DNA from: Candidatus Omnitrophota bacterium
GTDB lineage: Bacteria; Omnitrophota; Gorgyraeia; Duberdicusellales; 4484-171
Assembly (NCBI GenBank): GCA_021735655.1
Contig: JAIPGM010000002.1
Location: forward strand, 256,001 to 320,000
DNA: 64,000 bases
Reading direction: 5' to 3'
Shown: in pieces, positions 16,202 through 44,748 of the stretch
Numbering within the stretch: the stretch's first letter is position 1
Layout of the letters: each line of letters opens with the position of its first letter
Made by a program: the position numbers and the translations under genes
The notes under the pieces: model-generated
Databases searched by the model: none
The model's input: only the letters and a program-made list of their open reading frames with translations
What the model was told of the DNA's origin: nothing

Positions 16202-16227
16202 ACTACCCCCTCCTTTAAAACTAATCT

Positions 16228-16262: not shown

Positions 16263-16329
16263 TGCACCCTGATTTACTTGGCCCTAAAATAAAAAAATTC
16301 AGGTAATGTTTCCACGCAAAACCTAAACT

Positions 16330-16520: not shown

Positions 16521-16550
16521 TTAGCTACTTTTATACAAAGAACATCTGTA

Positions 16551-16956: not shown

Positions 16957-16974
16957 TATAGGGGCGACGAATGG

Positions 16975-28395: not shown

Positions 28396-28518
28396 TTAGT
28401 CGAAGGCTTGAGAAATGCCGTAGGCTGCAGCAGCTGAGATGCCGGCTCCGATAAGAGCGCAACCCTGCATAAGCGGTAATAATACTAAAATTGAAATGAT
28501 AACAATTCTTTTAATCAT
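28396..28518 (-). CDS. Small (40 aa) secreted/lipoprotein-like glycine-zipper peptide (entericidin-like)
   Basis: Manual translation gives MIKRIVIISILVLLPLMQGCALIGAGISAAAAYGISQAFD*, preceded by the SD GGAGGAAAAGAGG and a TGaTATAAT extended -10. It has a signal-like N-terminus, a Cys and a GxxxGxxxA glycine zipper. It is not in the ORF track. Confidence 0.4.
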   Translation of the reverse strand: MIKRIVIISILVLLPLMQGCALIGAGISAAAAYGISQAFD

Positions 28519-28559
28519 CCTCTTTTCCTCCTTTAAATAATTATATCACAAGATATGCT

Positions 28560-32016: not shown

Positions 32017-32030
32017 AACAAACTCCAATT

Positions 32031-32273
32031 TTACTCTACATCAAACGATAGCACCTGTATCACTGTTCCCGGGAAAAAAGTTAGCTCTAGCTCAGCCTTA
32101 GCACAAGGAGTCCCCTCAGCTAAAATTTTAAAGGTTTCTCTAAATGAATCCTCCTTGATCCCGTTCAGCTCACCGATTTTTATATGTATCTTAGACACTA
32201 CCTTTGAGCCTTCTTTTTCAGCGTGTTCACAAATTCCTTTAATCAATGGTTTTATGATATGGGTTTCGTGCAT
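32031..32273 (-). CDS. hypA: HypA-like nickel metallochaperone lacking the zinc-finger domain
   Basis: An 80-aa ORF starting with MHE, the HypA Ni-binding N-terminus, and ending in the HypA-like VIQVLSFDVE. The two CxxC pairs of canonical ~113-aa HypA are absent. Confidence 0.55.
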   Translation of the reverse strand: MHETHIIKPLIKGICEHAEKEGSKVVSKIHIKIGELNGIKEDSFRETFKILAEGTPCAKAELELTFFPGTVIQVLSFDVE

Positions 32274-32728
32274 GTTTTTACCTCAATAATTAAATTAGTT
32301 AATTCCTTTAATGTTTTAGCAACACTTTGTGAAATCTCATCACCAAACTCAAGAGTTTTCGGTTGCACCCCTAAAAGAAAAATATCAGCTTCGGTTTCTT
32401 TACCCAAAAAATCTAAAAACATCCTTGGTGATAAATCATGAGTAGTGAATCCCGATTTCACGATATCTTCCTTAACTAAAATCTCATAATCTCCTGGCTC
32501 TTTACCAAGATCAACAACATCAACTATTAAAATCGTATTTGGACGTTCTTTGGTTATTTTGCCAATATAGTTTTCTGGTGCTGAACCAACATCAATACAG
32601 GTTGCATCCACTTTCTGGTAAACAGTCTCAATGAACTTAGGACCGAAAGCATCGTCACCACGCATAATATTTCCTACCCCAACGATAACGACTTTCCCTT
32701 TAAAAACATTCCGAAAAATATTATTCAT
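32252..32728 (-). CDS. hycI: Hydrogenase maturation endopeptidase (HycI-type)
   Basis: A 158-aa ORF with VVIVGVGNIMRGDDAFGP and a conserved His/Asp pattern. Its short length fits the HycI subtype that serves group-4 hydrogenases. Confidence 0.8.
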   Translation of the reverse strand: MNNIFRNVFKGKVVIVGVGNIMRGDDAFGPKFIETVYQKVDATCIDVGSAPENYIGKITKERPNTILIVDVVDLGKEPGDYEILVKEDIVKSGFTTHDLSPRMFLDFLGKETEADIFLLGVQPKTLEFGDEISQSVAKTLKELTNLIIEVKTCTKPIS

Positions 32729-32768
32729 AGTGTAAAATAAAATTTAAATGAAACTGTCTTAGTTGATA

Positions 32769-33380
32769 TTACTCAGCAGTAAGGGTGGTTTCACGTCGAC
32801 AGCGGGCGCATAGAATCTTAACTCGATCAGAACGCCCATCATCCCTTAAAGCTGAAACAATATTTTCATCTACAATACCAAGACTTTTAAGATGGGAAAG
32901 ATAAAGCGTAGGACTTGAGTAGGTAAGCTCACCTAATTTTTGAGAAATCCATTTAAGGTGATCTTTGCAGGCTATTACATCGCCGCAAACTTCACAAAGT
33001 TGTAGTTCTTTTTCTATTTGTTCTTGGGCTTGAGCGCGGTCAAAAAATGATAACTCCCAATCAGTAGATAACTTAATACCTTGCTTATCAGCCAAACAGG
33101 CTGCTTCACACTGTCCACAAAAAATACAAGTATCAGTATAATGAATCATCAGCCGCTTAGGATCATCTTTATTTTCAGTAATATCCTTATGAGAAATCGC
33201 TTCAACTGGGCAAACCTCTTCACAACCGCAACAACCAACACATTTTTGATCATTAAACTTCGGCTGACCGCGAAAGTTAGGATGAGCCACATGGGCCTCT
33301 TTAGGGAACTTTGACGTGTAAGGCCCCTTAATCAATGCCTTGATTGCTTCAACCAACTCTCTTAATTTTGGCAACTTCAT
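32769..33380 (-). CDS. 2x[4Fe-4S] ferredoxin subunit of group-4 hydrogenase (NuoI/HycF/MbhN-like) with a Cys-rich C-terminal extension
   Basis: CVGCCGCEEVCP and CIFCGQCEAAC are followed by a ~90-aa tail containing CEVCG...C and CARC. Confidence 0.8.
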   Translation of the reverse strand: MKLPKLRELVEAIKALIKGPYTSKFPKEAHVAHPNFRGQPKFNDQKCVGCCGCEEVCPVEAISHKDITENKDDPKRLMIHYTDTCIFCGQCEAACLADKQGIKLSTDWELSFFDRAQAQEQIEKELQLCEVCGDVIACKDHLKWISQKLGELTYSSPTLYLSHLKSLGIVDENIVSALRDDGRSDRVKILCARCRRETTLTAE

Positions 33381-33391
33381 AAATTTATCTT

Positions 33392-33474
33392 AAAAAAGAA
33401 GCGTAAAACGTAGTCTAGACTCAATATTCTTGAATCACCCGTGGCTAAAACTTTTCGTCTACGTTTACGCTTCT
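33392..33474 (-). terminator. Large hairpin + U6 between mrpG and the NuoI-like ferredoxin gene (intra-operon terminator/attenuator candidate)
   Basis: In the minus-strand RNA, GAAGCGUAAACGUAG, then ~45 nt, then CUACGUUUUACGCUUC, followed by UUUUUU. This is a ~15-bp stem with one bulge. The 5' arm overlaps the last codons of mrpG, and the downstream ferredoxin gene has no SD. Confidence 0.4.
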
Positions 33475-33803
33475 CCTTCCTTATCCTCTTTATATTTATC
33501 AATTACACTACCTTCCCAAAGTTTAACCCCGGCCCGATGGGCTCCTCTGGCTACAGCATGGGCAGCTACCGGCGAGGTTAACAAAAGAAAAACCGCACAA
33601 AGAAGCGCCTTAAAGCCCGCGGCAATAAAGCCAACAATTAAAAATGTTCCAAAAAGAATACTACAAGTTCCTAAAGTAACACACTTGGTGGCTGCTTGAA
33701 GACGATTATATACATCCGGAAGTCTTACCAAACCTAAGCAACCAACTATATCAAAAGCTAACCCACCGGAAATGAATATCAAACCAATAATATCACTCAT
33801 CAA
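33465..33803 (-). CDS. Mrp-type cation/H+ antiporter subunit G-like hydrogenase membrane subunit
   Basis: A 112-aa ORF with 3 TM helices and an MnhG/PhaG-like pattern. Confidence 0.75.
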   Translation of the reverse strand: MMSDIIGLIFISGGLAFDIVGCLGLVRLPDVYNRLQAATKCVTLGTCSILFGTFLIVGFIAAGFKALLCAVFLLLTSPVAAHAVARGAHRAGVKLWEGSVIDKYKEDKEGEA

Positions 33804-34188
33804 ACCCTCTTCCCTCTAAATATTTCGAAAGAGCTAAGGTGCTAATAAAACTTTGAAGCGCCCAAGCAATTCCAATATCCAGATACCAAGATCTTCCAGT
33901 CGAAATAGTTAAAACTGCACAAAGCCCCACAATCATAATCCCTAAAATATCAATCGCTACAATTCTGTCGGCTCCGGTAGGACCTTTAGCAATACGATAA
34001 AGCGCCAGTACACATCCTAGAATTAGAATGTAAAGTGCCCTCCCAACAAGACCACTATAGACGAGATTTTCAGGAAAAAGAAAACCAAAAGGCCTAAAAA
34101 TAATTAAGCCTAAAACAATACTAAGGGTAGTTGCTCCAAACAGCCAATTTAACATCTTTTTGCTTTCAGCTTTTTTCTTTTTAGCCAT
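33793..34188 (-). CDS. Mrp subunit F-like
   Basis: GPTGADRIVAIDIL is a MnhF hallmark. Confidence 0.75.
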   Translation of the reverse strand: MAKKKKAESKKMLNWLFGATTLSIVLGLIIFRPFGFLFPENLVYSGLVGRALYILILGCVLALYRIAKGPTGADRIVAIDILGIMIVGLCAVLTISTGRSWYLDIGIAWALQSFISTLALSKYLEGRGFDE

Positions 34189-34193
34189 AGTAA

Positions 34194-34691
34194 TTATTCA
34201 AATATTTTTCTTAATATTTTCTCAAACCGCTCAATAATAACTTTGGTAGCAGCTTCAGTCTGAGTTTCCTTCACGTCAATCCAATGTACATATAAAACAC
34301 CATCATCCTTGTCAATATCTACAGTTAAAGTTCCTGGAGTAAGTGTTATTGAATTCGCTAAAAATGTAAGCGCTGTATCTGTCTTAAGCGTAGTTTTCAC
34401 CTTAACAATGCCAGGTTTTATCGGTAAATTAGGATGTAGAATCCTGTAGGCAACATCAATATTTGCTTTAAAACACTCCCATAGAAATCTCGGAAGATAA
34501 TAAACAAAAAAATACCAGTATCTCAAAGGGTGCTTAAGGACATGAGGACGTTTTACAAACAAATCTCCGGTTAAAAAAGCACAAAGAGCGGCTGCGAATA
34601 CACCAATAGCTAGATGCTGCCAATCCGGTACCCAGTTCAATAAGCACCATACAACAAAGGCAACTAAAAATAAAACTATTTTTCTTTTCAT
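34194..34691 (-). CDS. Mrp subunit E-like
   Basis: The SITLTPGTL motif and two N-terminal TM helices. Confidence 0.75.
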   Translation of the reverse strand: MKRKIVLFLVAFVVWCLLNWVPDWQHLAIGVFAAALCAFLTGDLFVKRPHVLKHPLRYWYFFVYYLPRFLWECFKANIDVAYRILHPNLPIKPGIVKVKTTLKTDTALTFLANSITLTPGTLTVDIDKDDGVLYVHWIDVKETQTEAATKVIIERFEKILRKIFE

Positions 34692-36187
34692 TGGACTGCT
34701 CTGATAATATTTATTGTGTAGTTTTTTGTGCCAAGCAAAACCCCAGAGGCTTTAAGCAGGAATTGTTCTCTTATCCCCGGAAAAAATAAAAACCCACCTA
34801 AAAGGCAAACTAAAACTAAGATAATCATCGAAGCCTTCATGAAAGCAGGCACTTCAGTAATATTTTCCCACTGTTTCCTAAGATTTCCAAAAAATGCATA
34901 CTTCATAACCTTGGTAAAAGAAGCAAGGGTCAAAATACTAGCCAACACTGCCCAAAAACCATACCAATACTGGTTGGCCTGAACACAAGCAATAATAATA
35001 ATTAACTTGCTCCAAAAACCATTAAACGGCGGAATTCCAGCGATTGACATAGAAGCTCCAAAAGCAGTAGCTGAGGTAACTGGCATTCTTTGACTTAATC
35101 CCCCCATTTTTTTTAAATCTCTGGTTCCGGTTGTGTATTCAACAGCACCAGAATTTAAAAAAAGAAGAGATTTGAATATTGAGTGATTGAACAAATGGAA
35201 TAAGCCTCCGATTATACCTAAAGGAGTGCCCAAACCTATCCCCAAAATAACATAACCAATCTGGCTTATTGAATGATAGGCAAGCAAACGTTTCAAATCC
35301 CACTGTCCGATAGCCAAAAATACACCAACCACCATTGAGAGCGCACCGAGCGCCATCAAAATCATTGAAAGCTGACTATTCACACCTAAAATATTAAAGA
35401 ATATACGGCAAAGAGTGTATACTCCTAATGATTTAATCAATACCCCAGAAAGCATAGCTGATATTGGAGCTGGTGCTGAAGGATGAGCATCAGGAAGCCA
35501 GGCATGAAACGGCACCAAAGCTGCTTTTAAACCAAAACCCATAAGAAACAATACACTTACTAATATTAAAACATTTGGGCAGTCGGCTTGAGACAAAACT
35601 AAACCCATATCAGCCATATTTAGGGTTGAAGTGCAACTATATAGAAATACAATACCTAAAAGAATAAATAATGACCCTACGGTACTCATCAGGGCATATT
35701 TAAAGGCGGCTTCAAGCTCATGGCGTTCAGTTCCAAAAGCAACCAGAGCATAACTAGCAACAGAGGCAATCTCTAAAAAAACAAAAAGGTTAAATATGTC
35801 GCCAGTTATCAAAACCCCGTTCATCCCTCCCAACATCAATAGAAATAAGGTGTAAAATTTCCATTTAGCGGTGAACTTTTCCATGTAGTTAATTGAAAAA
35901 AGAGCTACACAAAAAGCAACTAAATTAACCGTAACTAACATAAAACTAGTTAGACCGTCTAAGACAAAAGTTATCCCGATTGGCGGCTTCCAAGATCCAG
36001 CAGCATAAACCAACACTCCATGCTCAGCCACAAGTTTTACACTGTAAAGCGACAAAAATAAAAGAGCTGTTGTGCATAAATTACCAATTAAATCCGGCAG
36101 CCATTTACTTTTTTTACCAAACAAAACAGTTAAAAAGGCACCCGAAAGACAAACTACAACAAAAATTGGTATAATATTAGAACTCAT
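34688..36187 (-). CDS. Mrp subunit D / NuoN-like proton-pumping membrane subunit (second copy)
   Basis: A 499-aa ORF with ~14 TM helices and the NuoL/M/N family core. Confidence 0.8.
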   Translation of the reverse strand: MSSNIIPIFVVVCLSGAFLTVLFGKKSKWLPDLIGNLCTTALLFLSLYSVKLVAEHGVLVYAAGSWKPPIGITFVLDGLTSFMLVTVNLVAFCVALFSINYMEKFTAKWKFYTLFLLMLGGMNGVLITGDIFNLFVFLEIASVASYALVAFGTERHELEAAFKYALMSTVGSLFILLGIVFLYSCTSTLNMADMGLVLSQADCPNVLILVSVLFLMGFGLKAALVPFHAWLPDAHPSAPAPISAMLSGVLIKSLGVYTLCRIFFNILGVNSQLSMILMALGALSMVVGVFLAIGQWDLKRLLAYHSISQIGYVILGIGLGTPLGIIGGLFHLFNHSIFKSLLFLNSGAVEYTTGTRDLKKMGGLSQRMPVTSATAFGASMSIAGIPPFNGFWSKLIIIIACVQANQYWYGFWAVLASILTLASFTKVMKYAFFGNLRKQWENITEVPAFMKASMIILVLVCLLGGFLFFPGIREQFLLKASGVLLGTKNYTINIIRAVQ

Positions 36188-36189
36188 AT

Positions 36190-36525
36190 CTATCCCCGCA
36201 ACTCTCTAATTTTAGTAATATCAAATGTTTGATACTTTTCATAAATTCGCATAGCGATTGCAATAAGCAAAGCTGTTGATGCCAAACCAATAACAATTGA
36301 AGTCAAAACTACTGCCTGAGGTAAGGCATCGACCATATTATTAATTGTTGTGTCTGGTGAATATATCGGAGAACGCCCCTTTATCCGATAAGCAACTAAG
36401 ATAAATAAAAGATTTACTGCATATTCAGCGATGATAACACCAATAATAATCTTAATTATATTACGTTTACGTAAAATACAATAAAGACCAACACAAAAAA
36501 GCACCAAACAAAGCAAGTAGATCAT
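36190..36525 (-). CDS. Mrp subunit C / NuoK-like
   Basis: A 111-aa ORF with 3 TM helices and VDALPQAVVLTSIVIGLA. Confidence 0.8.
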   Translation of the reverse strand: MIYLLCLVLFCVGLYCILRKRNIIKIIIGVIIAEYAVNLLFILVAYRIKGRSPIYSPDTTINNMVDALPQAVVLTSIVIGLASTALLIAIAMRIYEKYQTFDITKIRELRG

Positions 36526-36977
36526 TTTCCTTCGGTTCCTCCATCAAATTTAAGCAAAGTAAGGGCAATAAATATAGCAAACAAACCGGCCCCGACCTTT
36601 AAACTAATTGCAATATTACAAAGTGGAATAATCCCAGCTGAAAAAAGTCTAAACGGCTCCCCCTTAGGAAGAAAGTTTAAAAAGAAATACCCACCAGTAA
36701 ACCCCAAAAGGGCAATTGCTAAAAACATTATTGCTCCAAAACCTTCAAAAAAAGAAATAGCTTTCTTAGGCATTCTTTTTAAAGCCGCGTCTTTACCATA
36801 AGCAAGCATTAAATGAATAAAGCTGAGTGCAATAATTACCCCTCCGGCAAATCCTCCACCGGGGGAAACATGACCATGAGAAAGAATATAAATACCAAAA
36901 AGAAGTATTATGCCCACGGTAAGACGAGTAATTGTCTTAACGATTACCGACATTCCCTTTTCATGCTCTTTGCTCAT
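36522..36977 (-). CDS. Mrp subunit B-like (MnhB domain)
   Basis: The HGHVSPGGGFAGG MnhB motif. Confidence 0.8.
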   Translation of the reverse strand: MSKEHEKGMSVIVKTITRLTVGIILLFGIYILSHGHVSPGGGFAGGVIIALSFIHLMLAYGKDAALKRMPKKAISFFEGFGAIMFLAIALLGFTGGYFFLNFLPKGEPFRLFSAGIIPLCNIAISLKVGAGLFAIFIALTLLKFDGGTEGK

Positions 36978-37526
36978 TTATTCATCCTCTGGGTCTACTT
37001 TCTCATTAATTTTTTTACGCCCGACCCTGCGCACTAGGGTTAAAACACCTATTACTGCGGTAAATAAAACTGTAGCTTCACCTAAGGTGTCATAGGCTCG
37101 ATAATCAAGAATAACTGAAGCAACAATATTAGTTGCTCCGGTCTTAGCTAAGCCTTGCTTAAGATAAGTATCGGCCACCCGCATAATTGGATAACCAAAA
37201 CGTGGCAAATCACCAATTGCCTTATAGGCTGCAAATAAAAATAAACTAACAAAGCCTAAAATAATTGAGGTATTAAGTAACCATCGACCACTAGTTGAAA
37301 AAGGTAAATCTTTTTTTAAAGTTGCCCGAATCAAAATGATTAAACATAATATCTCAACTACTAATTGAGTAATTGCAACATCGGGAGCTTTGAGAATAAT
37401 AAACGTTATCGAAAGCCCTAGCCCTACGGCACCGACGGCAATAACTGAGGAAAGCAGATCTTTAAGCTCAACGGCGACAATTGCCCCAACAATCATAAAA
37501 ATTAATAAAATATATAGCTCAAACAT
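36978..37526 (-). CDS. MnhB-related membrane subunit (MbhD/E-like)
   Basis: A 182-aa polytopic ORF resembling the N-terminal MrpB/DUF4040 portion. Confidence 0.55.
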   Translation of the reverse strand: MFELYILLIFMIVGAIVAVELKDLLSSVIAVGAVGLGLSITFIILKAPDVAITQLVVEILCLIILIRATLKKDLPFSTSGRWLLNTSIILGFVSLFLFAAYKAIGDLPRFGYPIMRVADTYLKQGLAKTGATNIVASVILDYRAYDTLGEATVLFTAVIGVLTLVRRVGRKKINEKVDPEDE

Positions 37527-37533
37527 ATTTAAG

Positions 37534-39192
37534 TTACTTTAAAAGTATATAAAAAAGTATCCCCATACCTAAAAGACACCAGGACAAATAAGTAGATAAA
37601 ATGCCATTATGCAAATAACGCAAAATACTGTTAAAGCCAAAAGTAATTTTACTACCGACTTCATAAATATCGAATAATTTCTTATTAGCTAAACTATAGA
37701 TAACCTTTAACAGGCCCAACTCTTTGATTGTGTTATAAAAATCAGTTCCTGAAACTCTCATCTCGGGATATTTTTCAGTGCTTTCTCCGCCCATAAAAAT
37801 ATTAACCTGGCGACTCTTTGAAACTGTGCCCAAAAGATAAACTATTAGACCAATGACCATGCCAGCAAGAATCAAAGCCGTAGCTAAACTTGCATTCCAG
37901 ACTCCGGAAAACTCTACTGGCTGCCAAATAACCGGAAAGATAAAAAACTTAAGCGGAAGCCGGTAAGCAAATACACCAAAAACTACACATAGTAAGGCTA
38001 AAATTGCTCCCGGTATCCACATCGCTAGCCCAACCTCTTTTTTCTGATCTTTACTGAGTGCTTTTACGGTTGTGCTTTCTTGACCCAAAAATACAGCATG
38101 AACAAGTTTCATGAAACTTGCCAAAGTTAAGGCACTTCCAAACATGGCTGAAACTAACCAAACGACCCATAACCCACCACTGTTTTTAGCCGTCTCAATG
38201 ATACCCTGGTAGATCATCCATTTAGAAACAAAACCATTAAATGGCGGAACCCCAGAGATAGCAAATGAAGCAATCAAAAAAGTAATAAAAGTAATCGGCA
38301 TATATTTAGCAAGACCGCCAAGTTTATCTAAATTAGTAGTTTTGGTCCTTTTTTCTACAGAGCCACTGGTTAAAAATAAACAAGACTTATAAATCGCATT
38401 ATTCAGCATATGAAATAGTCCACCGGCAATACCGATAATTGTACCCGTACCAATACCTAAAATCATATAACCAACTTGACTTACCGCATGATAACCAAGG
38501 AGTCTCTTTAAGTCATGTTGGACTAAAGCCATCATAACCGCAGCTATAATAGTAAAGCTACCGATAAACATCAAAAATGTATTCATGCTTAAACCTAAAC
38601 GAAACATTTCCAAGGAAATTCTAATTAAAAGATATATTCCCAAAAGTTTGTCCAAAGAAGCAGGCAAATAAGCCGCAACCGGAGTTGGTGAGTCTTCAGC
38701 TGCGTCAGGAACCCAGGTATGAAAAGGCATAGCCCCGGCTTTAGCAAAAGCTCCGACCGCCAAACAAAGATAGGCAAAAGTAGCCACCTTAGAAGTCAAT
38801 GGTATTGATATTAAATCCATCTCGAATAAACCGGTAAGTTTCCAAATTAAGGCAACTCCCAAAAGCATTAAAGCATCGGTTCCACCAATTATAATAAATG
38901 CTTTCTTTGCCGTAGCTGAGCTATTATCCTTTTTACCAAAGCCAATTAAAAGATAAAGAAGCAACCCCAAGAATCCCCAGAAAACCATGAACAGAATTAA
39001 ATTATTGGCAAAAACCACACCCAAAGAAGCAATCAAAGTAAAAAAGATATAAAGGTAGTAACGTGAAATTCCACGTTGGGCACGCATGTACCCCATCGAA
39101 TATACAGTTACCAAAATAGAAAAAAACCAAATAAATATTCCGACAAATATCGACAAAGCATCAAATCTAAAATAATTCGCTAAAAAATTCAT
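37534..39192 (-). CDS. Mrp subunit D / NuoL-like antiporter membrane subunit (MbhH-like)
   Basis: A 552-aa ORF with the NuoL/M/N family core. Confidence 0.8.
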   Translation of the reverse strand: MNFLANYFRFDALSIFVGIFIWFFSILVTVYSMGYMRAQRGISRYYLYIFFTLIASLGVVFANNLILFMVFWGFLGLLLYLLIGFGKKDNSSATAKKAFIIIGGTDALMLLGVALIWKLTGLFEMDLISIPLTSKVATFAYLCLAVGAFAKAGAMPFHTWVPDAAEDSPTPVAAYLPASLDKLLGIYLLIRISLEMFRLGLSMNTFLMFIGSFTIIAAVMMALVQHDLKRLLGYHAVSQVGYMILGIGTGTIIGIAGGLFHMLNNAIYKSCLFLTSGSVEKRTKTTNLDKLGGLAKYMPITFITFLIASFAISGVPPFNGFVSKWMIYQGIIETAKNSGGLWVVWLVSAMFGSALTLASFMKLVHAVFLGQESTTVKALSKDQKKEVGLAMWIPGAILALLCVVFGVFAYRLPLKFFIFPVIWQPVEFSGVWNASLATALILAGMVIGLIVYLLGTVSKSRQVNIFMGGESTEKYPEMRVSGTDFYNTIKELGLLKVIYSLANKKLFDIYEVGSKITFGFNSILRYLHNGILSTYLSWCLLGMGILFYILLK

Positions 39193-40376
39193 TTTATGCC
39201 TAGTTTACTTTTTATCTTTTCGGTTTTACTTTGTGAAAGGCGAACTAAATCCTCACCGTTATATATTTTTTTACCCTTAGTGTTACGTACCGCCACTCTC
39301 TCAGTACAACAATAACAAGGATCAATGGACGCTAAAATTATCGTTGCATCAGAAATCGTCTCGCCAACCACAGTTGCCTTATAGGTCGGTAAATTCATAA
39401 AAGTAGGTGCTCTTACTTTGTGACGAGCCGGTCGATTGGTCCCATCGCTTTTCACATAATGAAAACATTCACCCCGCGGCGCCTCAATATGACCGATACC
39501 TTCACCTGAAGGAATACTTTTAATCTTAGCATCAATTTCTGTATCCGGAAGGTTTAAAAGGCAATACTTAACCATATCTATCGATTCAAAAGTCTCTAAA
39601 ATTCTTACTACCGCTTTATCGAAAACATCGCCATTTTTAGTCACAATCATATTCCAGTTAAACTGATCATATGCCCCATAAGGAGAATTTTTACGTAGAT
39701 CTCTGGCCACCCCCGAAGCCCGAGATACCGGACCGAGAGCACAAAAGTTAATTGCCTCATCCTTAGTGAGGATACCTATTCCTTTAGTCCTAGCATGTAA
39801 CACCGGGTCATCGATTACTGCCTTTTTAAGCATTTCAAGAGTCGGGATAATCGAATCTATCTTTTTTATCGCAAAAGGTATATCTTCTTTTTTTATGTCT
39901 CGCCGAACCCCTCCCGGCTTAAACATAGCATAGTTGTTGCGATTTCCCGAAAGTGCCTCCATAACATCAAGGATTTCCTCACGCAACTTCCAAGCCCACA
40001 TATAAACAGTATTGTAACCTAAAAAATGTCCGGCAAGACCCAACCATAAAAGATGTGAATGAATACGTTCTCCCTCAGCGATAATTGTTCGGATATATTT
40101 AGCCCTCATTGGCACTTCTAGAGGGATAACATCCTCAACTGCCCGAGTATAAGCATAAGGATGACTGGTTGAACAAATACCACAGATTCTCTCAATTACA
40201 AAAGTAGATTGGTCGAAGGTTTTTCGCTCAGAAAGCTTTTCAATGCCGCGATGGTTATAACCAATCTGAACATCGATATCAACAACTGTCTCCCCATCTA
40301 CAGTTAAGCTGAAAAACTCAGGCTCTTCCTGTAAAGGGTGATATGGTCCGATTGGAACTATAGTTCGTTTTCCCAT
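39189..40376 (-). CDS. [NiFe] hydrogenase large (catalytic) subunit, group 4 (NuoD/EchE/MbhL-like)
   Basis: The L1 motif RICGICSTSH (RxCGxCxxxH) is near the N-terminus. The L2 motif DPCYCCTER (DPCxxCxxR, the Arg form typical of group 4) is near the C-terminus. A ~30-aa tail follows, as expected for a HycI-processed precursor. Confidence 0.9.
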   Translation of the reverse strand: MGKRTIVPIGPYHPLQEEPEFFSLTVDGETVVDIDVQIGYNHRGIEKLSERKTFDQSTFVIERICGICSTSHPYAYTRAVEDVIPLEVPMRAKYIRTIIAEGERIHSHLLWLGLAGHFLGYNTVYMWAWKLREEILDVMEALSGNRNNYAMFKPGGVRRDIKKEDIPFAIKKIDSIIPTLEMLKKAVIDDPVLHARTKGIGILTKDEAINFCALGPVSRASGVARDLRKNSPYGAYDQFNWNMIVTKNGDVFDKAVVRILETFESIDMVKYCLLNLPDTEIDAKIKSIPSGEGIGHIEAPRGECFHYVKSDGTNRPARHKVRAPTFMNLPTYKATVVGETISDATIILASIDPCYCCTERVAVRNTKGKKIYNGEDLVRLSQSKTEKIKSKLGIK

Positions 40377-40849
40377 TATAATCCTCGATCTCTAATTGAT
40401 GAGTCGTCCCACTCTTGATAATCGCGTCTCAAAGGATATACACCTTGTGGCCACTCATCGGGCAAAAGCAACCGCTTCAACTCTGGATGACCGCGAAAAT
40501 TGACTCCTAACATTTCAGCTATCTCACGTTCAATCCAATTAGCACCTTCAAATATTGGGGCTAATGAATCTATTTCTAATTTGCTCTTATCCAACTTAAC
40601 CCGGAAAGAAACTACTAAATTTATATCTTCAAAGGTAAAATGATAAAGAATTTCTATATGTTTAAATGTATCTACTCCCGAAGCAATATTGAATCTGGCC
40701 CCCAAATTTTTAAAAACATAGGTCGCAACCTTAACAATCGCCTGAGGTTTAATCTCAATATAGACCCGAGTTAAGGTCTTATCGAAAATATCTAAAATAT
40801 CTTCGTCGAATCTTTTCTTTAAATCTTTAATAACTTCGCTTCTGGTCAT
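40376..40849 (-). CDS. NuoC-like (30-kDa) hydrogenase subunit
   Basis: A 157-aa ORF with a NuoC/HycE-N domain pattern. Confidence 0.75.
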   Translation of the reverse strand: MTRSEVIKDLKKRFDEDILDIFDKTLTRVYIEIKPQAIVKVATYVFKNLGARFNIASGVDTFKHIEILYHFTFEDINLVVSFRVKLDKSKLEIDSLAPIFEGANWIEREIAEMLGVNFRGHPELKRLLLPDEWPQGVYPLRRDYQEWDDSSIRDRGL

Positions 40850-41286
40850 TTTGCTTGAGGGTTTCCAGCCCCACTTAATTTATCGATTAACTTAACAACC
40901 CCGGCAATAATCGCCTCTGGTTTCGGCGGGCACCCAGGTATATATACGTCTACCGGAATAATTTTATCAACTGGCAAAGGACAGTTATAGCTATGAATAA
41001 ACATACCTCGCGACAAAGAGCACTCACCAACAGCCACTACTACACAAGGCTTCGGCATCTGCTCATATACTTCTTTAATCCGAGGAATGCACTTTCGATT
41101 AGCAGAACCAGTTACTAAAAGCACGTCAGCATGTTTTATGCTTCCGGCTAAAAGCATGCCAAACCTTTCGATATCAAAGCGTGGGGTTAAACAATCCAAT
41201 ATTTCAATATCGCAATTATTGCAACTACCAGTTGAAAGATGAAAAACCCATGGTGACTTGAGTAATGCTTTAAGTTTTATGCTCAT
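40846..41286 (-). CDS. NuoB-like [NiFe] hydrogenase small subunit (proximal 4Fe-4S)
   Basis: GSCNNCDIE ... VGECS ... PGCPPKPEA. The start is trimmed to the Met of MSIKLKALL to avoid overlap with the upstream gene. Confidence 0.85.
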   Translation of the reverse strand: MSIKLKALLKSPWVFHLSTGSCNNCDIEILDCLTPRFDIERFGMLLAGSIKHADVLLVTGSANRKCIPRIKEVYEQMPKPCVVVAVGECSLSRGMFIHSYNCPLPVDKIIPVDVYIPGCPPKPEAIIAGVVKLIDKLSGAGNPQAK

Positions 41287-42206
41287 AAACCCTTTAAGGC
41301 TAAAATAACTGCGATTATAGCAATAATCAACATTGGCCCCCAAAAAAATCTTATTGCCTGATCAATTCTAACTCTAGGATTAGTATTACGAATAACGGTG
41401 ATCAAGGCAACCAAACCAACATACCTCAACACCCCGTATATAAGATTTAAGCCGTTTAGTCTTAACCCACCAATAAAAGTAATCATTATAAAGAAAGGCA
41501 AGACAAAGAACAACATATTTTTCATAAGTTTGTATACCGCAAGCGGGGCTCCCGAATACTCAACTAACGGTCCACCAATAATTTCGGTCTCAGCTTCAGG
41601 AATATCAAAAGGCACTAAGGCTAGTTTTGCCTGTACACACATAATAATTACAATAAAAGCCAAAAACCCCGACCAGCTTCCTAAGATTACGCCATTTTGA
41701 GCCTGATAAGTGATAATTTCACCTAAACGCAAGCTAAACCCGCTTTGAATAACCGGAACTAAAACCGCTAGAATAAATGGCAATTCATAACTTAAAACTA
41801 ATTTCATTTCTCGTGATGCACCAATACTAGCTAAAGGATTGCCTGAAGCAAAGCCTCCGATAATTATGCTTATTGAAGGAATAGCCAATAAATAAACTAC
41901 AACAACAATATCACCAACAAAGGTCCTCAGCGGATTAAAATTATTAAACCAAAGCACCGTAGACACAACAATAACACTCCCTAAACCAATAATCGGAGCG
42001 CTCAAAAAACTAAACTGAGAAGCGCCTTTAGGAACCAAAGTCTCTTTTCCAAGAAGCTTCACCAAATCAATAAGCGGCTGTAGGATTGGCGGCCCAACGC
42101 GATACTGAACTCGAGCGGTAACTTTACGGTCAACCCAGCTAGTTAACAAACCAATAATGGCGGTTAACAAGAATCCGAAAATAAAAAGATAAACTAAATA
42201 AATCAT
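41283..42206 (-). CDS. NuoH/HycD/EchB-like integral membrane hydrogenase subunit
   Basis: DRKVTARVQYRVGPP is the NuoH motif. The ORF has 8 TM helices. Confidence 0.85.
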   Translation of the reverse strand: MIYLVYLFIFGFLLTAIIGLLTSWVDRKVTARVQYRVGPPILQPLIDLVKLLGKETLVPKGASQFSFLSAPIIGLGSVIVVSTVLWFNNFNPLRTFVGDIVVVVYLLAIPSISIIIGGFASGNPLASIGASREMKLVLSYELPFILAVLVPVIQSGFSLRLGEIITYQAQNGVILGSWSGFLAFIVIIMCVQAKLALVPFDIPEAETEIIGGPLVEYSGAPLAVYKLMKNMLFFVLPFFIMITFIGGLRLNGLNLIYGVLRYVGLVALITVIRNTNPRVRIDQAIRFFWGPMLIIAIIAVILALKGL

Positions 42207-42769
42207 ACTTTTTCTCTATCCCAATGAGTAGAATGTACTATTAAATTGTCACCAACTAAAAATGAATCTTTGGTTAATAAATCATCCGAATTTACTAATT
42301 TTAATGCTCCGTATGGGCATGATTTTATGCAAAGCGGTTCATTTTTTTTATCTCTTCGATCAAAACAAAAATCACAATTATGAATTAAATAAGGCACATG
42401 CTCAGGATAAATGGTTCCGTAAGGGCAAGCATGAGAACAAGTTTTGCAACTTACGCAACGCATATTATGCCTAATCAAAAGGTTGTCTTTTTCGGTTTGT
42501 TGTTCCAAAGCCTCAAATGGGCAAGCATTAACACAGTGAGGTTCTTGGCATCTACGACAAACCAAAGCATAAGTTGCCAATTCAGCTACTGAAACTATTC
42601 CATTATTTATCGGATCTTGAGTGTGGTAAAAATAGCTGCACTCTAACTTACATTTTTTGCATTCTCCGGCCGCACAAATATCAAGATCAACAAAAAGCCG
42701 TTGACCACTATCAGATTTAGCTTCGGTATTTAATTTTCCTTGATGTAGTTGTTCGGCACTTGTATCCAT
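42203..42769 (-). CDS. Poly-[4Fe-4S] ferredoxin-like electron-transfer subunit (HycB-like)
   Basis: Four Cys clusters (C..C..C...C patterns). The protein is 188 aa. Confidence 0.7.
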   Translation of the reverse strand: MDTSAEQLHQGKLNTEAKSDSGQRLFVDLDICAAGECKKCKLECSYFYHTQDPINNGIVSVAELATYALVCRRCQEPHCVNACPFEALEQQTEKDNLLIRHNMRCVSCKTCSHACPYGTIYPEHVPYLIHNCDFCFDRRDKKNEPLCIKSCPYGALKLVNSDDLLTKDSFLVGDNLIVHSTHWDREKV

Positions 42770-42776: not shown

Positions 42777-43601
42777 CTAATCCCAAATATTAGGAAAATT
42801 CTTTATTTTGTCGTAAGTAAACACTGGTCCATCTTTGCAGGCATAATAAGTCCCTAGCCGACAATGACCGCATTTACCAATTCCACAAGACATATTTTTT
42901 TCCATTGAAAGATAGATATTCTTCTCCTTAAAACCCAACTCAAGCAATTTTTTAGTAGAAAACTTCATGGCGATTGGCGGCCCGCAAACAATAGCTATTG
43001 CCTCAGGGCAATTCATATCTAAATCATCCAAAATTGTAGTAACAACACCTACGTTACCTTTCCAATCAGGGCTAGCTTTATCAACAGTAAGTCTTAAATT
43101 TAAATCATCTCGCTTTGCCCAGCCGGCTATCTCAGTTTTATAGAGTAGCTCCTGTGAGGTTTTACAGCCACCCCGAAAAGACAGCTTCTTAAACTCCCCG
43201 CTTCGGGCAAAAAACTCATACATCAAACTACGCAAAGGAGCAAATCCACATCCACCACCGACGACAACGATTTCCTTACCTTTAAATTCATCAATCGGGT
43301 AACCAGTCCCAAAAGGGCCTCTCACTCCAATCAAATCGCCTTTTTTAAGCTGATGAACTTTATCGGTAACCTTGCCAACTTTCATTACCGTGACTTCCAT
43401 TACATCTCTCACTGATGGCCTCGATGAAGGTGTAAATGGCGCCTCACCCACGCCGGGAACAGTTAATTCGATAAATTGACCGGTCTCAAAACCCAAAGGC
43501 TCTTTAGGACGAAAACGTATGGTTTTAATCGTTGGCGTTTCGGTTATTACATCAAGAACTTCGGCCTCAATCGATCTGTAAGGATTCTCGATTTTATGCA
43601 T
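42777..43601 (-). CDS. FAD/NAD(P)-binding oxidoreductase with a C-terminal [2Fe-2S] (sulfhydrogenase gamma / PyrK / AsrB-like)
   Basis: A ferredoxin-NADP reductase-like fold (RFRPK, GQFIEL, VVVGGGCGFAPL) and a C-terminal CGIGKCGHCRLG...C. Confidence 0.75.
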   Translation of the reverse strand: MHKIENPYRSIEAEVLDVITETPTIKTIRFRPKEPLGFETGQFIELTVPGVGEAPFTPSSRPSVRDVMEVTVMKVGKVTDKVHQLKKGDLIGVRGPFGTGYPIDEFKGKEIVVVGGGCGFAPLRSLMYEFFARSGEFKKLSFRGGCKTSQELLYKTEIAGWAKRDDLNLRLTVDKASPDWKGNVGVVTTILDDLDMNCPEAIAIVCGPPIAMKFSTKKLLELGFKEKNIYLSMEKNMSCGIGKCGHCRLGTYYACKDGPVFTYDKIKNFPNIWD

Positions 43602-44619
43602 TATCCACCAACTTCTTTAAGACTTTTCGAATATCAATTTTAGCCGGGCAAGCTGTTATACAACGGCCACAGCCGGTACAAGCATACTCAGCGGCCACCT
43701 TGGGAAAAAAATCAAATTTTTTCTCAAACCTATTACGCAATCTCATCCAAAGCCTCTCTCGAGGATTGGCTCCGCCAGCAACCCGAGCAAAATCTTTTAT
43801 CATACAAGAATCCCAAATGCGTAAACGCTCCATCTTGTCTTTATCTTTTTGATCATACAAAAGAAAACAATGGCAGGTTGGGCAAATTGCATTACAGGCT
43901 CCACATTCAACGCAAGTTTTTGCTTCGTCTTCCCAAATTTTAGACTCATAGTTTTTCTGAACCACATCTTTGAAGCTGCTTTGGTCAGGAACGGTATTTT
44001 TACTTAGGTTAGCGTTAGCTTCTCCAGTTATTTTTTCACGCTTCTTATCTCTGGTAACAACTAGATCTTCTCGAGTTTGACGAAAAAGAAGAGTATATTG
44101 CTTCAGAATACTCTCACCTTTATCGGATCCGCTTTCAACAACAAAGCCATCATCAACCACAGAAAGATTTAGATCAAAATTATCTTTAGGATACGGTTTT
44201 AGACCTAAAGCCGCACAAAAGCAAGTATCAATTACGCAAGTGCAATCAGCTGAAATAATAAGGCTATCCTGACGTAACTTTAAATAAAAAGGATCCTGAT
44301 AATCGGGATTATCAAAAACATAGTCTTGAATTTTAAAACCTTTCAGATCACAAGCCTTGACTCCGACAATAGCAAAAGGCTTACTCGGAGACTGCGGAAG
44401 ATCCGGACTAAAACCAGAAGCTACCTTCTGACGAGCCTTCAAAAAAAATGATTTTACCGGCTCAAAAGCCCTTACCTCGCCAACAACGAATTCACTAGTC
44501 GAGCTATCGAACTTATCGTAAAACCGCTGCTGACCTTTTTTGACCGGAACAAATACCTGATAATCTTTATTTAGGTTTTCAAGAAATTTAGAAAAATTAT
44601 CGGAAGAGATATAATACAT
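43594..44619 (-). CDS. [4Fe-4S]-binding sulfhydrogenase beta / AsrA-like subunit
   Basis: CVECGACNAICPTCHC and CTGCGRCITACP. The ~340-aa length is typical of HydB/AsrA. Confidence 0.7.
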   Translation of the reverse strand: MYYISSDNFSKFLENLNKDYQVFVPVKKGQQRFYDKFDSSTSEFVVGEVRAFEPVKSFFLKARQKVASGFSPDLPQSPSKPFAIVGVKACDLKGFKIQDYVFDNPDYQDPFYLKLRQDSLIISADCTCVIDTCFCAALGLKPYPKDNFDLNLSVVDDGFVVESGSDKGESILKQYTLLFRQTREDLVVTRDKKREKITGEANANLSKNTVPDQSSFKDVVQKNYESKIWEDEAKTCVECGACNAICPTCHCFLLYDQKDKDKMERLRIWDSCMIKDFARVAGGANPRERLWMRLRNRFEKKFDFFPKVAAEYACTGCGRCITACPAKIDIRKVLKKLVDNA

Positions 44620-44663
44620 CAGAAGTCCTTGTTCTGTTTATGATTGATACTTAAATTAACCAT

Positions 44664-44688
44664 ACTTTGTGATTTTATTCACAAAGTA
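44664..44688. promoter_or_regulatory. Rex operator (TTGTGAtTTTATTCACAA) upstream of the hydrogenase operon
   Basis: A perfect palindrome ACTTTGTGA-TTTTAT-TCACAAAGT. The 18-bp core TTGTGATTTTATTCACAA matches the Rex consensus TTGTGAAnnnnTTCACAA at 17 of 18 positions. It lies 45-65 bp upstream of the first hydrogenase-operon gene, and rex is encoded in the same operon. Confidence 0.6.
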
Positions 44689-44748
44689 TTAAAGGCTAAA
44701 TTAACATAAATGCTATAATCTGTCAAATATTTTTTATCTAATCGTTGA

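What the first reader, a model, noticed from the sequence alone, without database searches (positions are those of the whole stretch)
44664..44688. Rex operator upstream of the hydrogenase operon, with rex embedded in the same operon
A perfect 25-bp palindrome contains the 18-bp Rex box TTGTGATTTTATTCACAA, 45-65 bp upstream of the first gene. A TTGACA -35-like hexamer lies ~40 bp further upstream. This is direct sequence evidence that the whole ~16-kb hydrogenase/maturation operon responds to NADH/NAD+. A half-site-like TTGTGA also overlaps the extended -10 in front of the small ORF at 28541..28556.
Basis: seen in the sequence. Interest (0 to 1): 0.5.

Follow-up and report, generated by a model that had tools for sequence, protein, structure and literature searches.

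The report
Rex operator on Omnitrophota hydrogenase operon
A short inverted repeat just downstream of the promoter of a 16-kb membrane-bound hydrogenase operon is very probably the binding site of the NADH-sensing repressor Rex, which is encoded in that same operon; this is a familiar type of redox switch, seen here in an uncultivated phylum.

Summary
The 18-bp box TTGTGATTTTATTCACAA is real (44667-44684). It is the only exact match in the window and appeared in none of 100 shuffles. It lies 48-65 nt upstream of the first gene of a 21-gene operon on the minus strand. The palindrome is not a "perfect 25-mer": it has 11-bp arms around a 6-bp asymmetric spacer (44662-44689). The TTGTGA half-site near 28550 is at chance level.

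The operon encodes a [NiFe] group-4, Mrp-linked hydrogenase with an NAD(P)H-type module, maturation genes and a bona fide rex (30057-30698).

Comparative evidence supports the Rex reading:
- In 163 related loci, mostly Candidatus Omnitrophota, the box is strongly concentrated in operon leaders. The first 80 loci gave 34 hits in 19.7 kb of leader against 3 in 455 kb elsewhere.
- The box sits 2-15 nt downstream of a conserved TTGACA-17-TGnTAnnnT promoter, which is a repressor position.
- It follows the promoter whether rex is embedded, as here, or is the first gene.
- Box variants track variants of the Rex DNA-binding region.

A CRP-type site, a terminator and chance are all poorly supported. 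Rex control of hydrogenase operons is already known, so this is a new member of a known kind. Binding and NADH response remain untested.

The parts
44667..44684 (-). Core 18-bp Rex box. It reads TTGTGAATAAAATCACAA on the coding (minus) strand and TTGTGATTTTATTCACAA on the plus strand.
   Evidence: It is the only exact match to TTGTGA-N6-TCACAA in the window, and 0 of 100 shuffles gave one. The identical or near-identical box occurs at the same place in orthologous leaders.
44662..44689 (.). Full inverted repeat: 11-bp arms ATACTTTGTGA / TCACAAAGTAT with a 6-bp spacer. This is the extended operator.
   Evidence: The flanking bases after TCACAA (A-G-T) are also largely conserved across loci, at 33, 19 and 27 of 35 unique sites.
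44721..44726 (-). -35 hexamer TTGACA of the predicted operon promoter.
   Evidence: A perfect TTGACA sits at the equivalent position in 16 of 18 window-type leaders; in 14 of them it has a 17-nt spacer and a TG-extended -10.
44698..44706 (-). Extended -10, TGTTAATTT: TG at 44706-44705 and hexamer TAATTT at 44703-44698. The spacer to the -35 is 17 nt, and the -10 ends 13 nt upstream of the box.
   Evidence: Read. The design TTGACA-17-TGnTAnnnT is conserved and ends 2-15 nt upstream of the box. The predicted transcription start is near 44690-44692, which is inferred and not mapped.
44617..44630 (-). Ribosome-binding site AAGGA (44630-44626) and start codon ATG (44619-44617) of the first gene.
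42777..44619 (-). Genes 1-2: an Fe-S subunit like ShyB/HydB/AsrA (341 aa) and an FAD/NAD(P)H-binding subunit like ShyC/HydG-gamma/AsrB (274 aa). Together they form a probable NAD(P)H module.
   Evidence: Pfam Fer4_22, and NAD_binding_1 + FAD_binding_6 + DHODB_Fe-S_bind. NCBIfam ShyB 187.8 bits, AsrB 243.3 bits and ShyC 176.7 bits, all below the equivalog cutoffs.
32769..42769 (-). Core of a [NiFe] group-4 hydrogenase with an Mrp-type antiporter module. It comprises a 2x[4Fe-4S] protein; NuoH-, NuoB-, NuoC- and NuoD-like subunits (large subunit at 39189-40376); MrpD-like, MbhD/E, MnhB, MnhC-like, MrpA/D-like, MnhE, MrpF and MnhG subunits; and a NuoI-like Fe-S subunit.
   Evidence: The large subunit has both Ni-binding motifs, RICGICSTSH and DPCYCCTER, plus a C-terminal extension.
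30685..32728 (-). Maturation genes: HycI endopeptidase (32252-32728), a short HypA (32031-32273), and a HypC fused to a HydE-like radical-SAM protein (30685-32028).
   Evidence: The fusion is conserved in L134, L081, L161-L164 and in at least 120 protein clusters.
30057..30698 (-). rex, encoding a 213-aa redox-sensing repressor. It overlaps the upstream gene by 14 nt and abuts the downstream gene.
   Evidence: Pfam Put_DNA-bind_N + CoA_binding. NCBIfam Rex 257.6 bits against a cutoff of 126. E=1.5e-46 to T. maritima Rex 5zz5 and 1.2e-43 to T-Rex 3ikt. The segment [22 protein letters not shown] is nearly identical to T. maritima Rex, and the Rossmann motif GLGRVG is present.
28560..30056 (-). 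HydG-type radical-SAM protein (498 aa), the last gene of the predicted transcription unit.
   Evidence: NCBIfam TIGR03955 HydG 448.5 bits against a cutoff of 312.

Best explanation
The inverted repeat at 44662-44689 is the operator of the NADH/NAD+-sensing repressor Rex, which is encoded in the same operon at 30057-30698.

The operator lies immediately downstream of a sigma-70-type promoter: TTGACA, a 17-nt spacer, then TGnTAATTT. It therefore covers roughly +2 to +29 of the transcript start region.

Proposed mechanism, by analogy with characterised Rex proteins (inferred):
- When the NADH/NAD+ ratio is low, a Rex dimer sits on the box and blocks RNA polymerase.
- When NADH rises, NADH-bound Rex leaves the DNA and the operon is transcribed.
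- The operon has 21 genes over about 16 kb: an NAD(P)H-type module, a [NiFe] group-4/Mrp hydrogenase, maturation genes, rex and hydG.
- Because rex is part of the unit it represses, the circuit is negatively autoregulated.
- The logic implies that the hydrogenase serves to dispose of excess reducing equivalents as H2.

Shown here: the box, its statistical rarity, the rex gene, the conserved promoter-operator geometry, the conservation across orthologous operons, and the co-variation with Rex.

Inferred: the transcription start, the single transcript, actual binding, the NADH response, and the direction of the enzyme.
For: 1. The box is the only exact match in 64 kb, and 0 of 100 shuffles gave one. 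It lies in the 129-bp gap between an unrelated LPS-core gene cluster and the first hydrogenase gene.
2. It matches all 12 core positions of the published Rex consensus TTGTGAANNNNTTCACAA (Ravcheev 2012, as quoted in PMC6391272 and PMC5317091).
3. The embedded gene is a bona fide Rex, with conserved recognition-helix and wing sequence and a Rossmann motif.
4. In 80 orthologous genome loci, boxes with up to 1 mismatch occur 34 times in 19.7 kb of operon leaders against 3 times in 455 kb elsewhere.
5. Across all loci, 33 of 38 leaders with an adjacent rex have a box with up to 2 mismatches. Only 1 of 294 background 200-nt windows does.
6. In 16 of 18 window-type leaders a perfect TTGACA -35 lies upstream of the box; in 14 it has a 17-nt spacer and a TG-extended -10, and the -10 ends 2-15 nt upstream of the box. 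This is a repressor position.
7. The box follows the promoter, not a fixed gene. Where rex is the first gene, the boxes lie upstream of rex, often as a tandem pair 21 bp apart, or between rex and gene 1. Where rex is embedded, the box lies at gene 1: the window, L134, L029/L161 and L042/L162.
8. In L062/L163 rex is detached from the operon, and both the rex leader and the hydrogenase leader carry the same variant box.
9. Box variants track variants of the Rex DNA-binding region.
10. There is precedent. Rex binds upstream of the [NiFe] Ech and [FeFe] hydrogenase operons of Caldicellulosiruptor bescii in EMSA (PMC6391272). Rex boxes are predicted upstream of CODH/ECH operons in Parageobacillus (PMC13077300) and of a rex-hydrogenase operon in Caldithrix (PMC5317091).
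Against: - There is no experimental evidence of binding, of an NADH response or of the transcription start for this organism.
- The core TGTGA-N6-TCACA is shared with CRP/FNR-type sites, and the rest of the genome could not be searched for such regulators.
- The enrichment statistics count related sequences, so the P values are inflated by shared ancestry.
- Co-occurrence of box and rex in the loci long enough to judge is only suggestive: 5 of 7 with rex against 1 of 7 without, Fisher P=0.10.
- The same repeat would fold into a stable RNA hairpin if transcribed (-18.9 kcal/mol, z=-5.5), so an RNA-level role cannot be excluded.
- An 84-bp gap (33381-33464) and a 40-bp gap (32729-32768) lie inside the operon, so co-transcription of rex with the structural genes is not proven.
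Confidence: 0.88

Rival explanations
1. The repeat is the binding site of a CRP/FNR-family regulator, whose consensus core TGTGA-N6-TCACA is the same, and which activates or represses the operon in response to another signal.
For: The core TGTGA-N6-TCACA is contained in the box. The genome outside the window could not be searched.
Against: - No CRP/FNR-family gene (cNMP-binding or HTH_Crp) was found among the window genes scanned.
- The outer T of TTGTGA and the outer A of TCACAA are almost invariant across loci, as in Rex boxes.
- The site lies downstream of the conserved -10, not at the -41.5 or -61.5 positions typical of CRP-type activation.
- The site is physically linked to rex in dozens of loci, and its variants co-vary with Rex.
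Confidence: 0.04
2. The repeat works at the RNA level. It is either an intrinsic terminator for the upstream co-directional genes or a 5'-UTR hairpin that stabilises or attenuates the hydrogenase mRNA.
For: - The terminator scan flags it on the minus strand: 11-bp stem, 3 G-C pairs, tail GGTTAATTTA.
- The RNA fold is -18.9 kcal/mol with z=-5.5.
- If the transcription start is near 44690, the hairpin would be at the very 5' end of the mRNA.
Against: - The stem is A+T-rich and the tail is not a proper U-tract.
- Orthologous sites keep the sequence TTGTGA/TCACAA rather than showing compensatory stem changes. Many are imperfect palindromes (GCACAA, GTACAA), and their downstream tails are not T-rich.
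- The site lies downstream of a conserved promoter.
- It occurs in loci where the upstream gene is divergent (L005, L052), where there is nothing to terminate.
- No Rfam family matches: the best hit scores 19.9 bits against a gathering score of 50.
- A secondary effect of the hairpin on mRNA stability is not excluded.
Confidence: 0.05
3. It is a chance palindrome or part of a dispersed repeat such as a REP or MITE element, with no regulatory role.
For: The sequence is A+T-rich (window GC 37%), which favours short palindromes.
Against: - None of 100 shuffles gave an exact match.
- There is a single copy in the window.
- It is conserved at the same promoter-proximal position in loci whose proteins are only 57-74% identical.
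Confidence: 0.01

Closest known systems
Rex operator (ROP) and Rex repressor of Streptomyces coelicolor, Thermus aquaticus (T-Rex, PDB 3ikt), Bacillus subtilis and Thermotoga maritima (PDB 5zz5). Generalised consensus TTGTGAANNNNTTCACAA (Ravcheev et al. 2012, quoted in PMC6391272).
   Same: - An 18-bp inverted repeat with identical outer hexamers TTGTGA/TCACAA.
- A Rex protein with a conserved winged-helix region ([22 protein letters not shown], against [22 protein letters not shown] in T. maritima) and a Rossmann fold.
- The operator overlaps the promoter and start region.
- rex is autoregulated.
   Different: - The host is an uncultivated Candidatus Omnitrophota-like bacterium.
- The palindrome extends to 11-bp arms (ATACTTTGTGA).
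- Only one of the two inner A/T consensus positions is kept on each strand.
- rex sits deep inside the regulated operon, 14 kb from its operator. Binding has not been tested.
Rex control of the [NiFe] Ech (group 4) and [FeFe] Hyd hydrogenase operons in Caldicellulosiruptor bescii and C. saccharolyticus (PMC6391272).
   Same: Rex boxes lie upstream of a multi-gene membrane-bound group-4 [NiFe] hydrogenase operon and of hydG. rex is itself in the regulon. The repressor logic is tied to disposal of reductant as H2.
   Different: - In C. bescii, binding was shown by EMSA and a rex deletion was studied; here there is only sequence and comparative evidence.
- The C. bescii enzyme is ferredoxin-dependent Ech. 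Here the operon starts with a ShyB/ShyC-like NAD(P)H module and carries a full Mrp module.
- rex is not embedded in the ech operon there.
Predicted Rex boxes upstream of Ni-CODH/ECH operons in Parageobacillus and Calderihabitans (PMC13077300, PMC7306483), and the rex-[FeFe] hydrogenase operon of Caldithrix abyssi (PMC5317091).
   Same: A consensus-like Rex box lies 30-40 bp upstream of the first gene of an energy-converting hydrogenase operon. In Caldithrix, rex is a gene of the operon and the box lies upstream of it, as in the many rex-first Omnitrophota loci found here.
   Different: The phyla and hydrogenase modules differ. In the window, rex is the penultimate gene of the operon rather than the first.
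CRP/FNR-family sites (TGTGA-N6-TCACA).
   Same: The core pentamers and the 6-bp spacing are shared.
   Different: - The outer T/A positions are conserved.
- The site lies downstream of the -10.
- It is linked to and co-varies with rex.
- No CRP/FNR gene was found in the window.

Membership tests
Rex operator (ROP) / Rex regulon | An 18-bp inverted repeat matching TTGTGAANNNNTTCACAA. | tested here: met
   All 12 outer positions match, and it is the only such site in the window. The consensus is quoted in PMC6391272 and PMC5317091. Read on the minus strand, TTGTGAATAAAATCACAA keeps A at position 7 but has A instead of T at position 12.
Rex operator (ROP) / Rex regulon | A Rex-family repressor (winged-helix domain plus NAD(H)-binding Rossmann domain) is encoded in the genome. 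| tested here: met
   The gene at 30057-30698 has Pfam PF06971 + PF02629. It scores 257.6 bits on NCBIfam Rex against a cutoff of 126. It gives E=1.5e-46 to 3.9e-36 against eight solved Rex structures, with the recognition region and GxGxxG aligned.
Rex operator (ROP) / Rex regulon | The site overlaps or directly follows the promoter, in a repressor geometry. | tested here: met
   The conserved TTGACA-17-TGnTAnnnT promoter ends 13 nt upstream of the box in the window and 2-15 nt upstream in related leaders. The transcription start itself is predicted, not mapped.
Rex operator (ROP) / Rex regulon | The site is conserved upstream of orthologous target operons (phylogenetic footprint). | tested here: met
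   There are 34 boxes in 19.7 kb of leaders against 3 in 455 kb elsewhere. Thirty-three of 38 rex-adjacent leaders have a box with up to 2 mismatches, against 1 of 294 background windows. The architecture is identical in L134, L161/L029 and L162/L042.
Rex operator (ROP) / Rex regulon | The operator co-varies with the DNA-binding region of the regulator. | tested here: met
   Three classes of Rex recognition-helix and wing sequence go with three classes of box: perfect boxes, tandem degenerate boxes, and TCGTTC-N6-TCACGA. This is a qualitative comparison, not a statistical test.
Rex operator (ROP) / Rex regulon | Rex binds the site in vitro and NADH releases it, with derepression in vivo at a high NADH/NAD+ ratio. 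| not testable with these tools
   This needs EMSA or footprinting with and without NADH/NAD+, reporter assays or transcriptomics.
Rex operator (ROP) / Rex regulon | The target genes act in NAD(H)-linked redox or fermentation metabolism. | tested here: met
   The operon begins with ShyB/ShyC-like (AsrA/AsrB-like) Fe-S and FAD/NAD(P)H-binding subunits and encodes a [NiFe] hydrogenase with intact Ni-binding motifs. The electron donor itself is inferred.
CRP/FNR-family binding site | A cognate CRP/FNR regulator is present and the site sits at -41.5 or -61.5 (activation) or overlaps the promoter. | tested here: inconclusive
   No such regulator is present in the 64-kb window, and the rest of the genome was not available. 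The site is downstream of the -10, which does not fit activator geometry.
Rho-independent terminator | A G+C-rich stem followed by a U-tract at the end of a transcription unit, with structure conserved rather than sequence. | tested here: not met
   The stem has 3 G-C pairs out of 11, and the tail is GGTTAATTTA. Orthologues conserve the sequence rather than the pairing. The site follows a promoter and occurs next to divergent upstream genes.
[NiFe] hydrogenase group 4, Mrp-linked (reported as group 4g in Omnitrophota MAGs, PMC8542988) | A NuoD-like large subunit with the L1 and L2 Ni-binding CxxC motifs, NuoB/C/H/I-like subunits, and Mrp antiporter subunits in one cluster. | tested here: met
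   The subgroup assignment (4g versus 4d) was not tested, because no HydDB-type classifier was available.

The most novel reading that the evidence does not exclude
The operator and the embedded rex form a self-contained redox switch for a hydrogenase type that has not been characterised. The enzyme would be an NAD(P)H-linked (ShyB/ShyC-like module), Mrp-coupled group-4 [NiFe] hydrogenase. Its active-site ligands would be supplied by [FeFe]-type radical-SAM enzymes, namely a conserved HypC-HydE fusion and HydG flanking rex, rather than or in addition to HypE/HypF. Rex control would then mark the enzyme as an NADH-consuming H2 producer assisted by the ion gradient.
Probability: 0.15. Interest if true: 0.7.

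Novelty: new member of a known kind. Interest (0 to 1): 0.3.

Why it matters
Omnitrophota are uncultivated, so their physiology is known only from inference on gene content. A well-supported Rex operator gives three things:
- A testable regulatory link between the cellular NADH/NAD+ ratio and their only membrane-bound hydrogenase.
- An argument that the enzyme works in the direction of reductant disposal, that is, H2 evolution.
- A motif, with lineage-specific variants, for reconstructing Rex regulons across the phylum.

It does not change what is known about Rex itself.

Tried and rejected
- **Half-site at 28546-28551.** Rejected. TTGTGA occurs 28 times against 32.7 expected, and there is no second half-site.
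- **Other Rex sites in the window.** The six hits with 2 mismatches all lie inside coding regions, and seven matches in total is close to chance (3.3 expected; 5 of 100 shuffles reached 7 or more).
- **Terminator reading.** It was flagged by the scan but rejected on comparative grounds.
- **Known RNA element.** Rfam gave nothing near its gathering scores.
- **CRP/FNR regulator in the window.** None was found.
- **Ravcheev et al. 2012.** The paper could not be read directly. Its consensus is taken from papers that quote it.
- **Box/rex co-occurrence test.** On the 14 metagenome loci long enough to judge, it gave only P=0.10. The strict anchor used also missed a few boxes that overlap the rex start (for example L018 and L019, seen).
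- **Literature searches.** Omnitrophota + hydrogenase + Rex, and Omnitrophota + HydG, both returned nothing.

Full report
**Observation**

All genes around the finding are on the minus strand. The sequence TTGTGATTTTATTCACAA is at 44667-44684. It sits inside an inverted repeat with 11-bp arms, 44662-44672 and 44679-44689, that are 100% complementary. The 6-bp spacer TTTTAT is not self-complementary.

The box is the only match to TTGTGA-N6-TCACAA in the window with 0 or 1 mismatch. None of 100 dinucleotide-preserving shuffles gave an exact match. The six additional hits with 2 mismatches are all inside genes and are close to chance.

The first gene starts at ATG 44619 and has an AAGGA ribosome-binding site at 44630-44626, so the box is 48-65 nt upstream. 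A perfect TTGACA is at 44726-44721. After a 17-nt spacer that ends in TG(T), there is a TAATTT -10 at 44703-44698, which ends 13 nt before the box.

The TTGTGA half-site at 28546-28551 exists. However, TTGTGA occurs 28 times in the window against 32.7 expected, and there is no partner half-site. That part of the finding is at chance level.

**What the operon is**

From 44619 down to 28560 there are 21 tightly packed or overlapping genes on the minus strand. The only gaps longer than 10 nt are 84 and 40 nt. In order, the genes are:
- a ShyB/HydB/AsrA-like Fe-S protein and a ShyC/AsrB-like FAD/NAD(P)H-binding protein;
- a 2x[4Fe-4S] protein;
- NuoH-, NuoB-, NuoC- and NuoD-like subunits;
- a full set of Mrp/Mbh membrane subunits;
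- a NuoI-like Fe-S protein;
- the HycI protease and a short HypA;
- a HypC fused to a HydE-like radical-SAM protein;
- rex;
- a HydG-type radical-SAM protein.

The large subunit carries both Ni-binding motifs, RICGICSTSH and DPCYCCTER, and a C-terminal extension for HycI. It is therefore a true [NiFe] group-4 hydrogenase.

The genes upstream of 44749 are LPS-core glycosyltransferases, LpxK and KdtA, which are unrelated. No convincing internal terminators stand out: 19 terminator-like sites were found against 15.1 expected.

The closest genomes are Candidatus Omnitrophota MAGs, with gene 1 at most 74% identical. Group 4g, Mrp-linked [NiFe] hydrogenases have been reported for Omnitrophota MAGs, with no mention of Rex (PMC8542988).

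**The regulator**

The 213-aa product of 30057-30698 scores 257.6 bits on NCBIfam Rex, against a cutoff of 126. It matches eight solved Rex structures with E=1.5e-46 to 3.9e-36. These include T. maritima Rex (5zz5) and the T. aquaticus Rex 3ikt.

Its segment [22 protein letters not shown] differs from the T. maritima protein at one residue. The Rossmann motif (VGLGRVGGAL), the FDND motif and the NFAP motif all align.

**Comparative evidence**

*Enrichment in leaders.* I fetched 80 genome loci through gene 1 and 80 metagenome loci through the large subunit with 10-kb flanks. In the first set, boxes with up to 1 mismatch occur 34 times in 19.7 kb of operon leaders and 3 times in the remaining 455 kb.

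*Box position follows rex position.* In about 31 of the first 80 loci, a rex homologue lies immediately upstream of gene 1. There the boxes lie upstream of rex, typically as a tandem pair 21 bp apart (for example TTGTGAAAAGTGGCACAAagtCTGTGAA...). In an Atribacterota-labelled group they lie between rex and gene 1.

Over both sets:
- 33 of 38 rex-adjacent leaders have a box with up to 2 mismatches;
- leaders without an adjacent rex are bimodal, with 20 of 60 having up to 1 mismatch and the rest at background level;
- only 1 of 294 background 200-nt windows has a box with up to 2 mismatches.

*Promoter geometry.* In 16 of 18 window-type leaders a perfect TTGACA lies upstream of the box. In 14 of them it is followed by a 17-nt spacer and a TG-extended -10, which ends 2-15 nt upstream of the box. 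The box therefore covers the transcription start region, which is the classical position of a repressor.

*Same architecture elsewhere.* Where enough DNA is available, loci with the box at gene 1 have rex embedded between the HypC-HydE fusion and HydG, exactly as in the window. This holds for L134, for L161 on the contig of L029, and for L162 on the contig of L042. The last two even share the downstream synteny.

*Detached rex.* In L062/L163, rex-hydG is detached from the hydrogenase operon. Both the rex leader and the hydrogenase leader carry a variant box right after a promoter: TCGTTCAAAATTTCACGA and TTGTTCTAAATTTCACGA.

*Co-variation with Rex.* That variant box occurs only in the lineages whose Rex is most divergent, at 32-34% identity with recognition and wing region IRKDISKFGRVGTPRIGY. 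The tandem degenerate boxes go with FGQFGVSGSGY. The perfect boxes go with [11 protein letters not shown] or FGQFGTRGRGY. This co-variation argues that Rex is the protein that reads the site.

*Caveats on the statistics.* The loci are phylogenetically related, so the P values are inflated. The direct box/rex co-occurrence test on the 14 long metagenome loci is only suggestive: 5 of 7 with rex against 1 of 7 without, P=0.10.

**Mechanism**

The best explanation has a confidence of about 0.88. [quoted passage not shown] NADH binding releases Rex and the whole unit is transcribed, rex included, which gives negative autoregulation.

The ShyB/ShyC-like module suggests that NAD(P)H is a substrate of the complex. 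Derepression at high NADH then fits a reductant-disposing, H2-evolving role, possibly assisted by the ion gradient through the Mrp module.

Binding, the NADH response, the transcription start, the single transcript and the direction of the enzyme are all inferred.

**Rivals**

*CRP/FNR-type site.* It shares the core TGTGA-N6-TCACA. Against it:
- the outer T/A positions are nearly invariant;
- the site is downstream of the -10;
- it is linked to and co-varies with rex;
- no CRP/FNR gene is in the window.

The rest of the genome is unknown.

*Terminator or 5'-UTR hairpin.* The scan flags the repeat, and its RNA fold is stable at -18.9 kcal/mol with z=-5.5. Against it:
- the stem is A+T-rich and lacks a U-tract;
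- orthologues conserve sequence, not pairing;
- the site follows a promoter and occurs beside divergent upstream genes;
- Rfam finds nothing.

A secondary effect of the hairpin on mRNA stability remains possible.

*Chance.* This is excluded.

**Comparison with what is known**

The generalised Rex consensus is TTGTGAANNNNTTCACAA (Ravcheev 2012, quoted in PMC6391272 and PMC5317091). Related precedents are:
- Rex binds upstream of the [NiFe] Ech and [FeFe] Hyd operons, hydG and rex itself in Caldicellulosiruptor bescii (EMSA, PMC6391272);
- Rex boxes are predicted upstream of CODH/ECH operons in Parageobacillus and Calderihabitans (PMC13077300);
- a box is predicted upstream of a rex-[FeFe] hydrogenase operon in Caldithrix (PMC5317091).

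The window's site is thus a new member of a known kind. What is new is the host phylum: no paper in the library combines Omnitrophota, hydrogenase and Rex. Also new are the breadth of the conservation, the lineage-specific operator variants, and the position of rex as the penultimate gene of the operon, 14 kb from its operator.

**Side observations**

The more unusual feature of the locus is its maturation module. It consists of a HypC-HydE-like fusion, conserved in at least 120 Omnitrophota protein clusters, and a full HydG flanking rex in a [NiFe] operon. No HypD/E/F, HydA or HydF is present in the window, and no literature was found.

Some related loci carry a decayed rex remnant followed by an intact box at the 3' end of the operon.

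**Verdict**

The novelty is that of a new member of a known kind, and I score the interest at about 0.3.

Noticed in passing
window 30685-32028 (-) and 28560-30056 (-): A [NiFe] hydrogenase operon carries [FeFe]-type maturases. One is a 447-aa fusion of HypC (aa 5-80) with a HydE-like radical-SAM protein (TIGR03956, 248.9 bits against a cutoff of 254.6). The other is a full HydG (448.5 bits against a cutoff of 312). They flank rex. The fusion is conserved in at least 120 Omnitrophota protein clusters and in loci L134, L081 and L161-L164. No HypD/E/F, HydA or HydF is present in the window. This could indicate an alternative route to the Fe(CO)(CN)2 ligands, or the two enzymes may serve an [FeFe] hydrogenase encoded elsewhere. 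No paper was found.
   Followed up: partly
window 42777-44619 (-): The group-4 Mrp-linked hydrogenase operon begins with ShyB/AsrA-like and ShyC/AsrB-like subunits, an Fe-S plus FAD/NAD(P)H module typical of cytoplasmic group-3b sulfhydrogenases. This suggests an NAD(P)H-coupled membrane-bound hydrogenase. The pairing is conserved in all related loci.
   Followed up: partly
L021, L065, L070, L071, L157, L163 (14191) and L062 (2766): A lineage-specific variant of the Rex box, T(C/T)GTTC-N6-TCACGA, always lies right after a promoter. It is found only where the Rex protein is most divergent (32-34% identity, wing sequence FGRVGTPRIGY).
   Followed up: partly
rex-first loci, e.g. L004 2302-2340, L036 771-809, L028, L039, L040: Tandem pairs of Rex boxes lie 21 bp apart centre to centre (TTGTGAAAAGTGGCACAAagtCTGTGAATATTATCACAA), directly after a cTTGACA -35. 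The spacing suggests that two Rex dimers bind on the same face of the helix.
   Followed up: partly
L100 17550-18010 (similar in L099 ~12270-12517, L106 ~17865, L112 13722-14001): A decayed, frameshifted remnant of rex lies at the 3' end of the hydrogenase operon. It is followed within about 20 nt by an intact Rex box (TTGTGATTACTTTCACAA). L100 also has an N-terminal Rex-like fragment just upstream of gene 1 (5470-5565). This suggests that rex has moved or been lost repeatedly within this operon family.
   Followed up: partly
window 28396-28518 (-): A 40-aa ORF, MIKRIVIISILVLLPLMQGCALIG..., has a lipoprotein-type signal and lipobox. It has a strong AAAGGAGG ribosome-binding site and a perfect extended -10, TGATATAAT (28549-28541). 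It is also called as a gene on the Logan contig. The following gene probably starts later than the 332-aa TTG ORF listed, since it is called as 282 aa and NicX-like.
   Followed up: partly
window 16324-16532 (-), 4429-4584 (-), 16893-16965 (-): A cobalamin riboswitch (81.7 bits) lies upstream of a TonB-dependent receptor gene (14231-16267). A c-di-GMP-I riboswitch (60.8 bits) lies upstream of an M48/CAAX-protease-like gene (3120-4358), next to GGDEF response-regulator and PilZ-STAS genes. There is also one tRNA.
   Followed up: no
window 6930-10139 (-): An EF-G-like protein of 1069 aa has its GTPase domain starting only at residue 382. It therefore has an N-terminal extension of about 380 aa with no Pfam match.
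   Followed up: no
window 49951-53810 (-): Two fused LPS-core enzymes: a 684-aa GT4 + GT9 (heptosyltransferase) fusion, and a 601-aa lipid A acyltransferase + ELM1-domain fusion.
   Followed up: no
whole window: Nearly every gene in the 64 kb is on the minus strand. The plus strand has far more C than G (13766 against 10116). This is a strong strand bias, consistent with one replichore.
   Followed up: no
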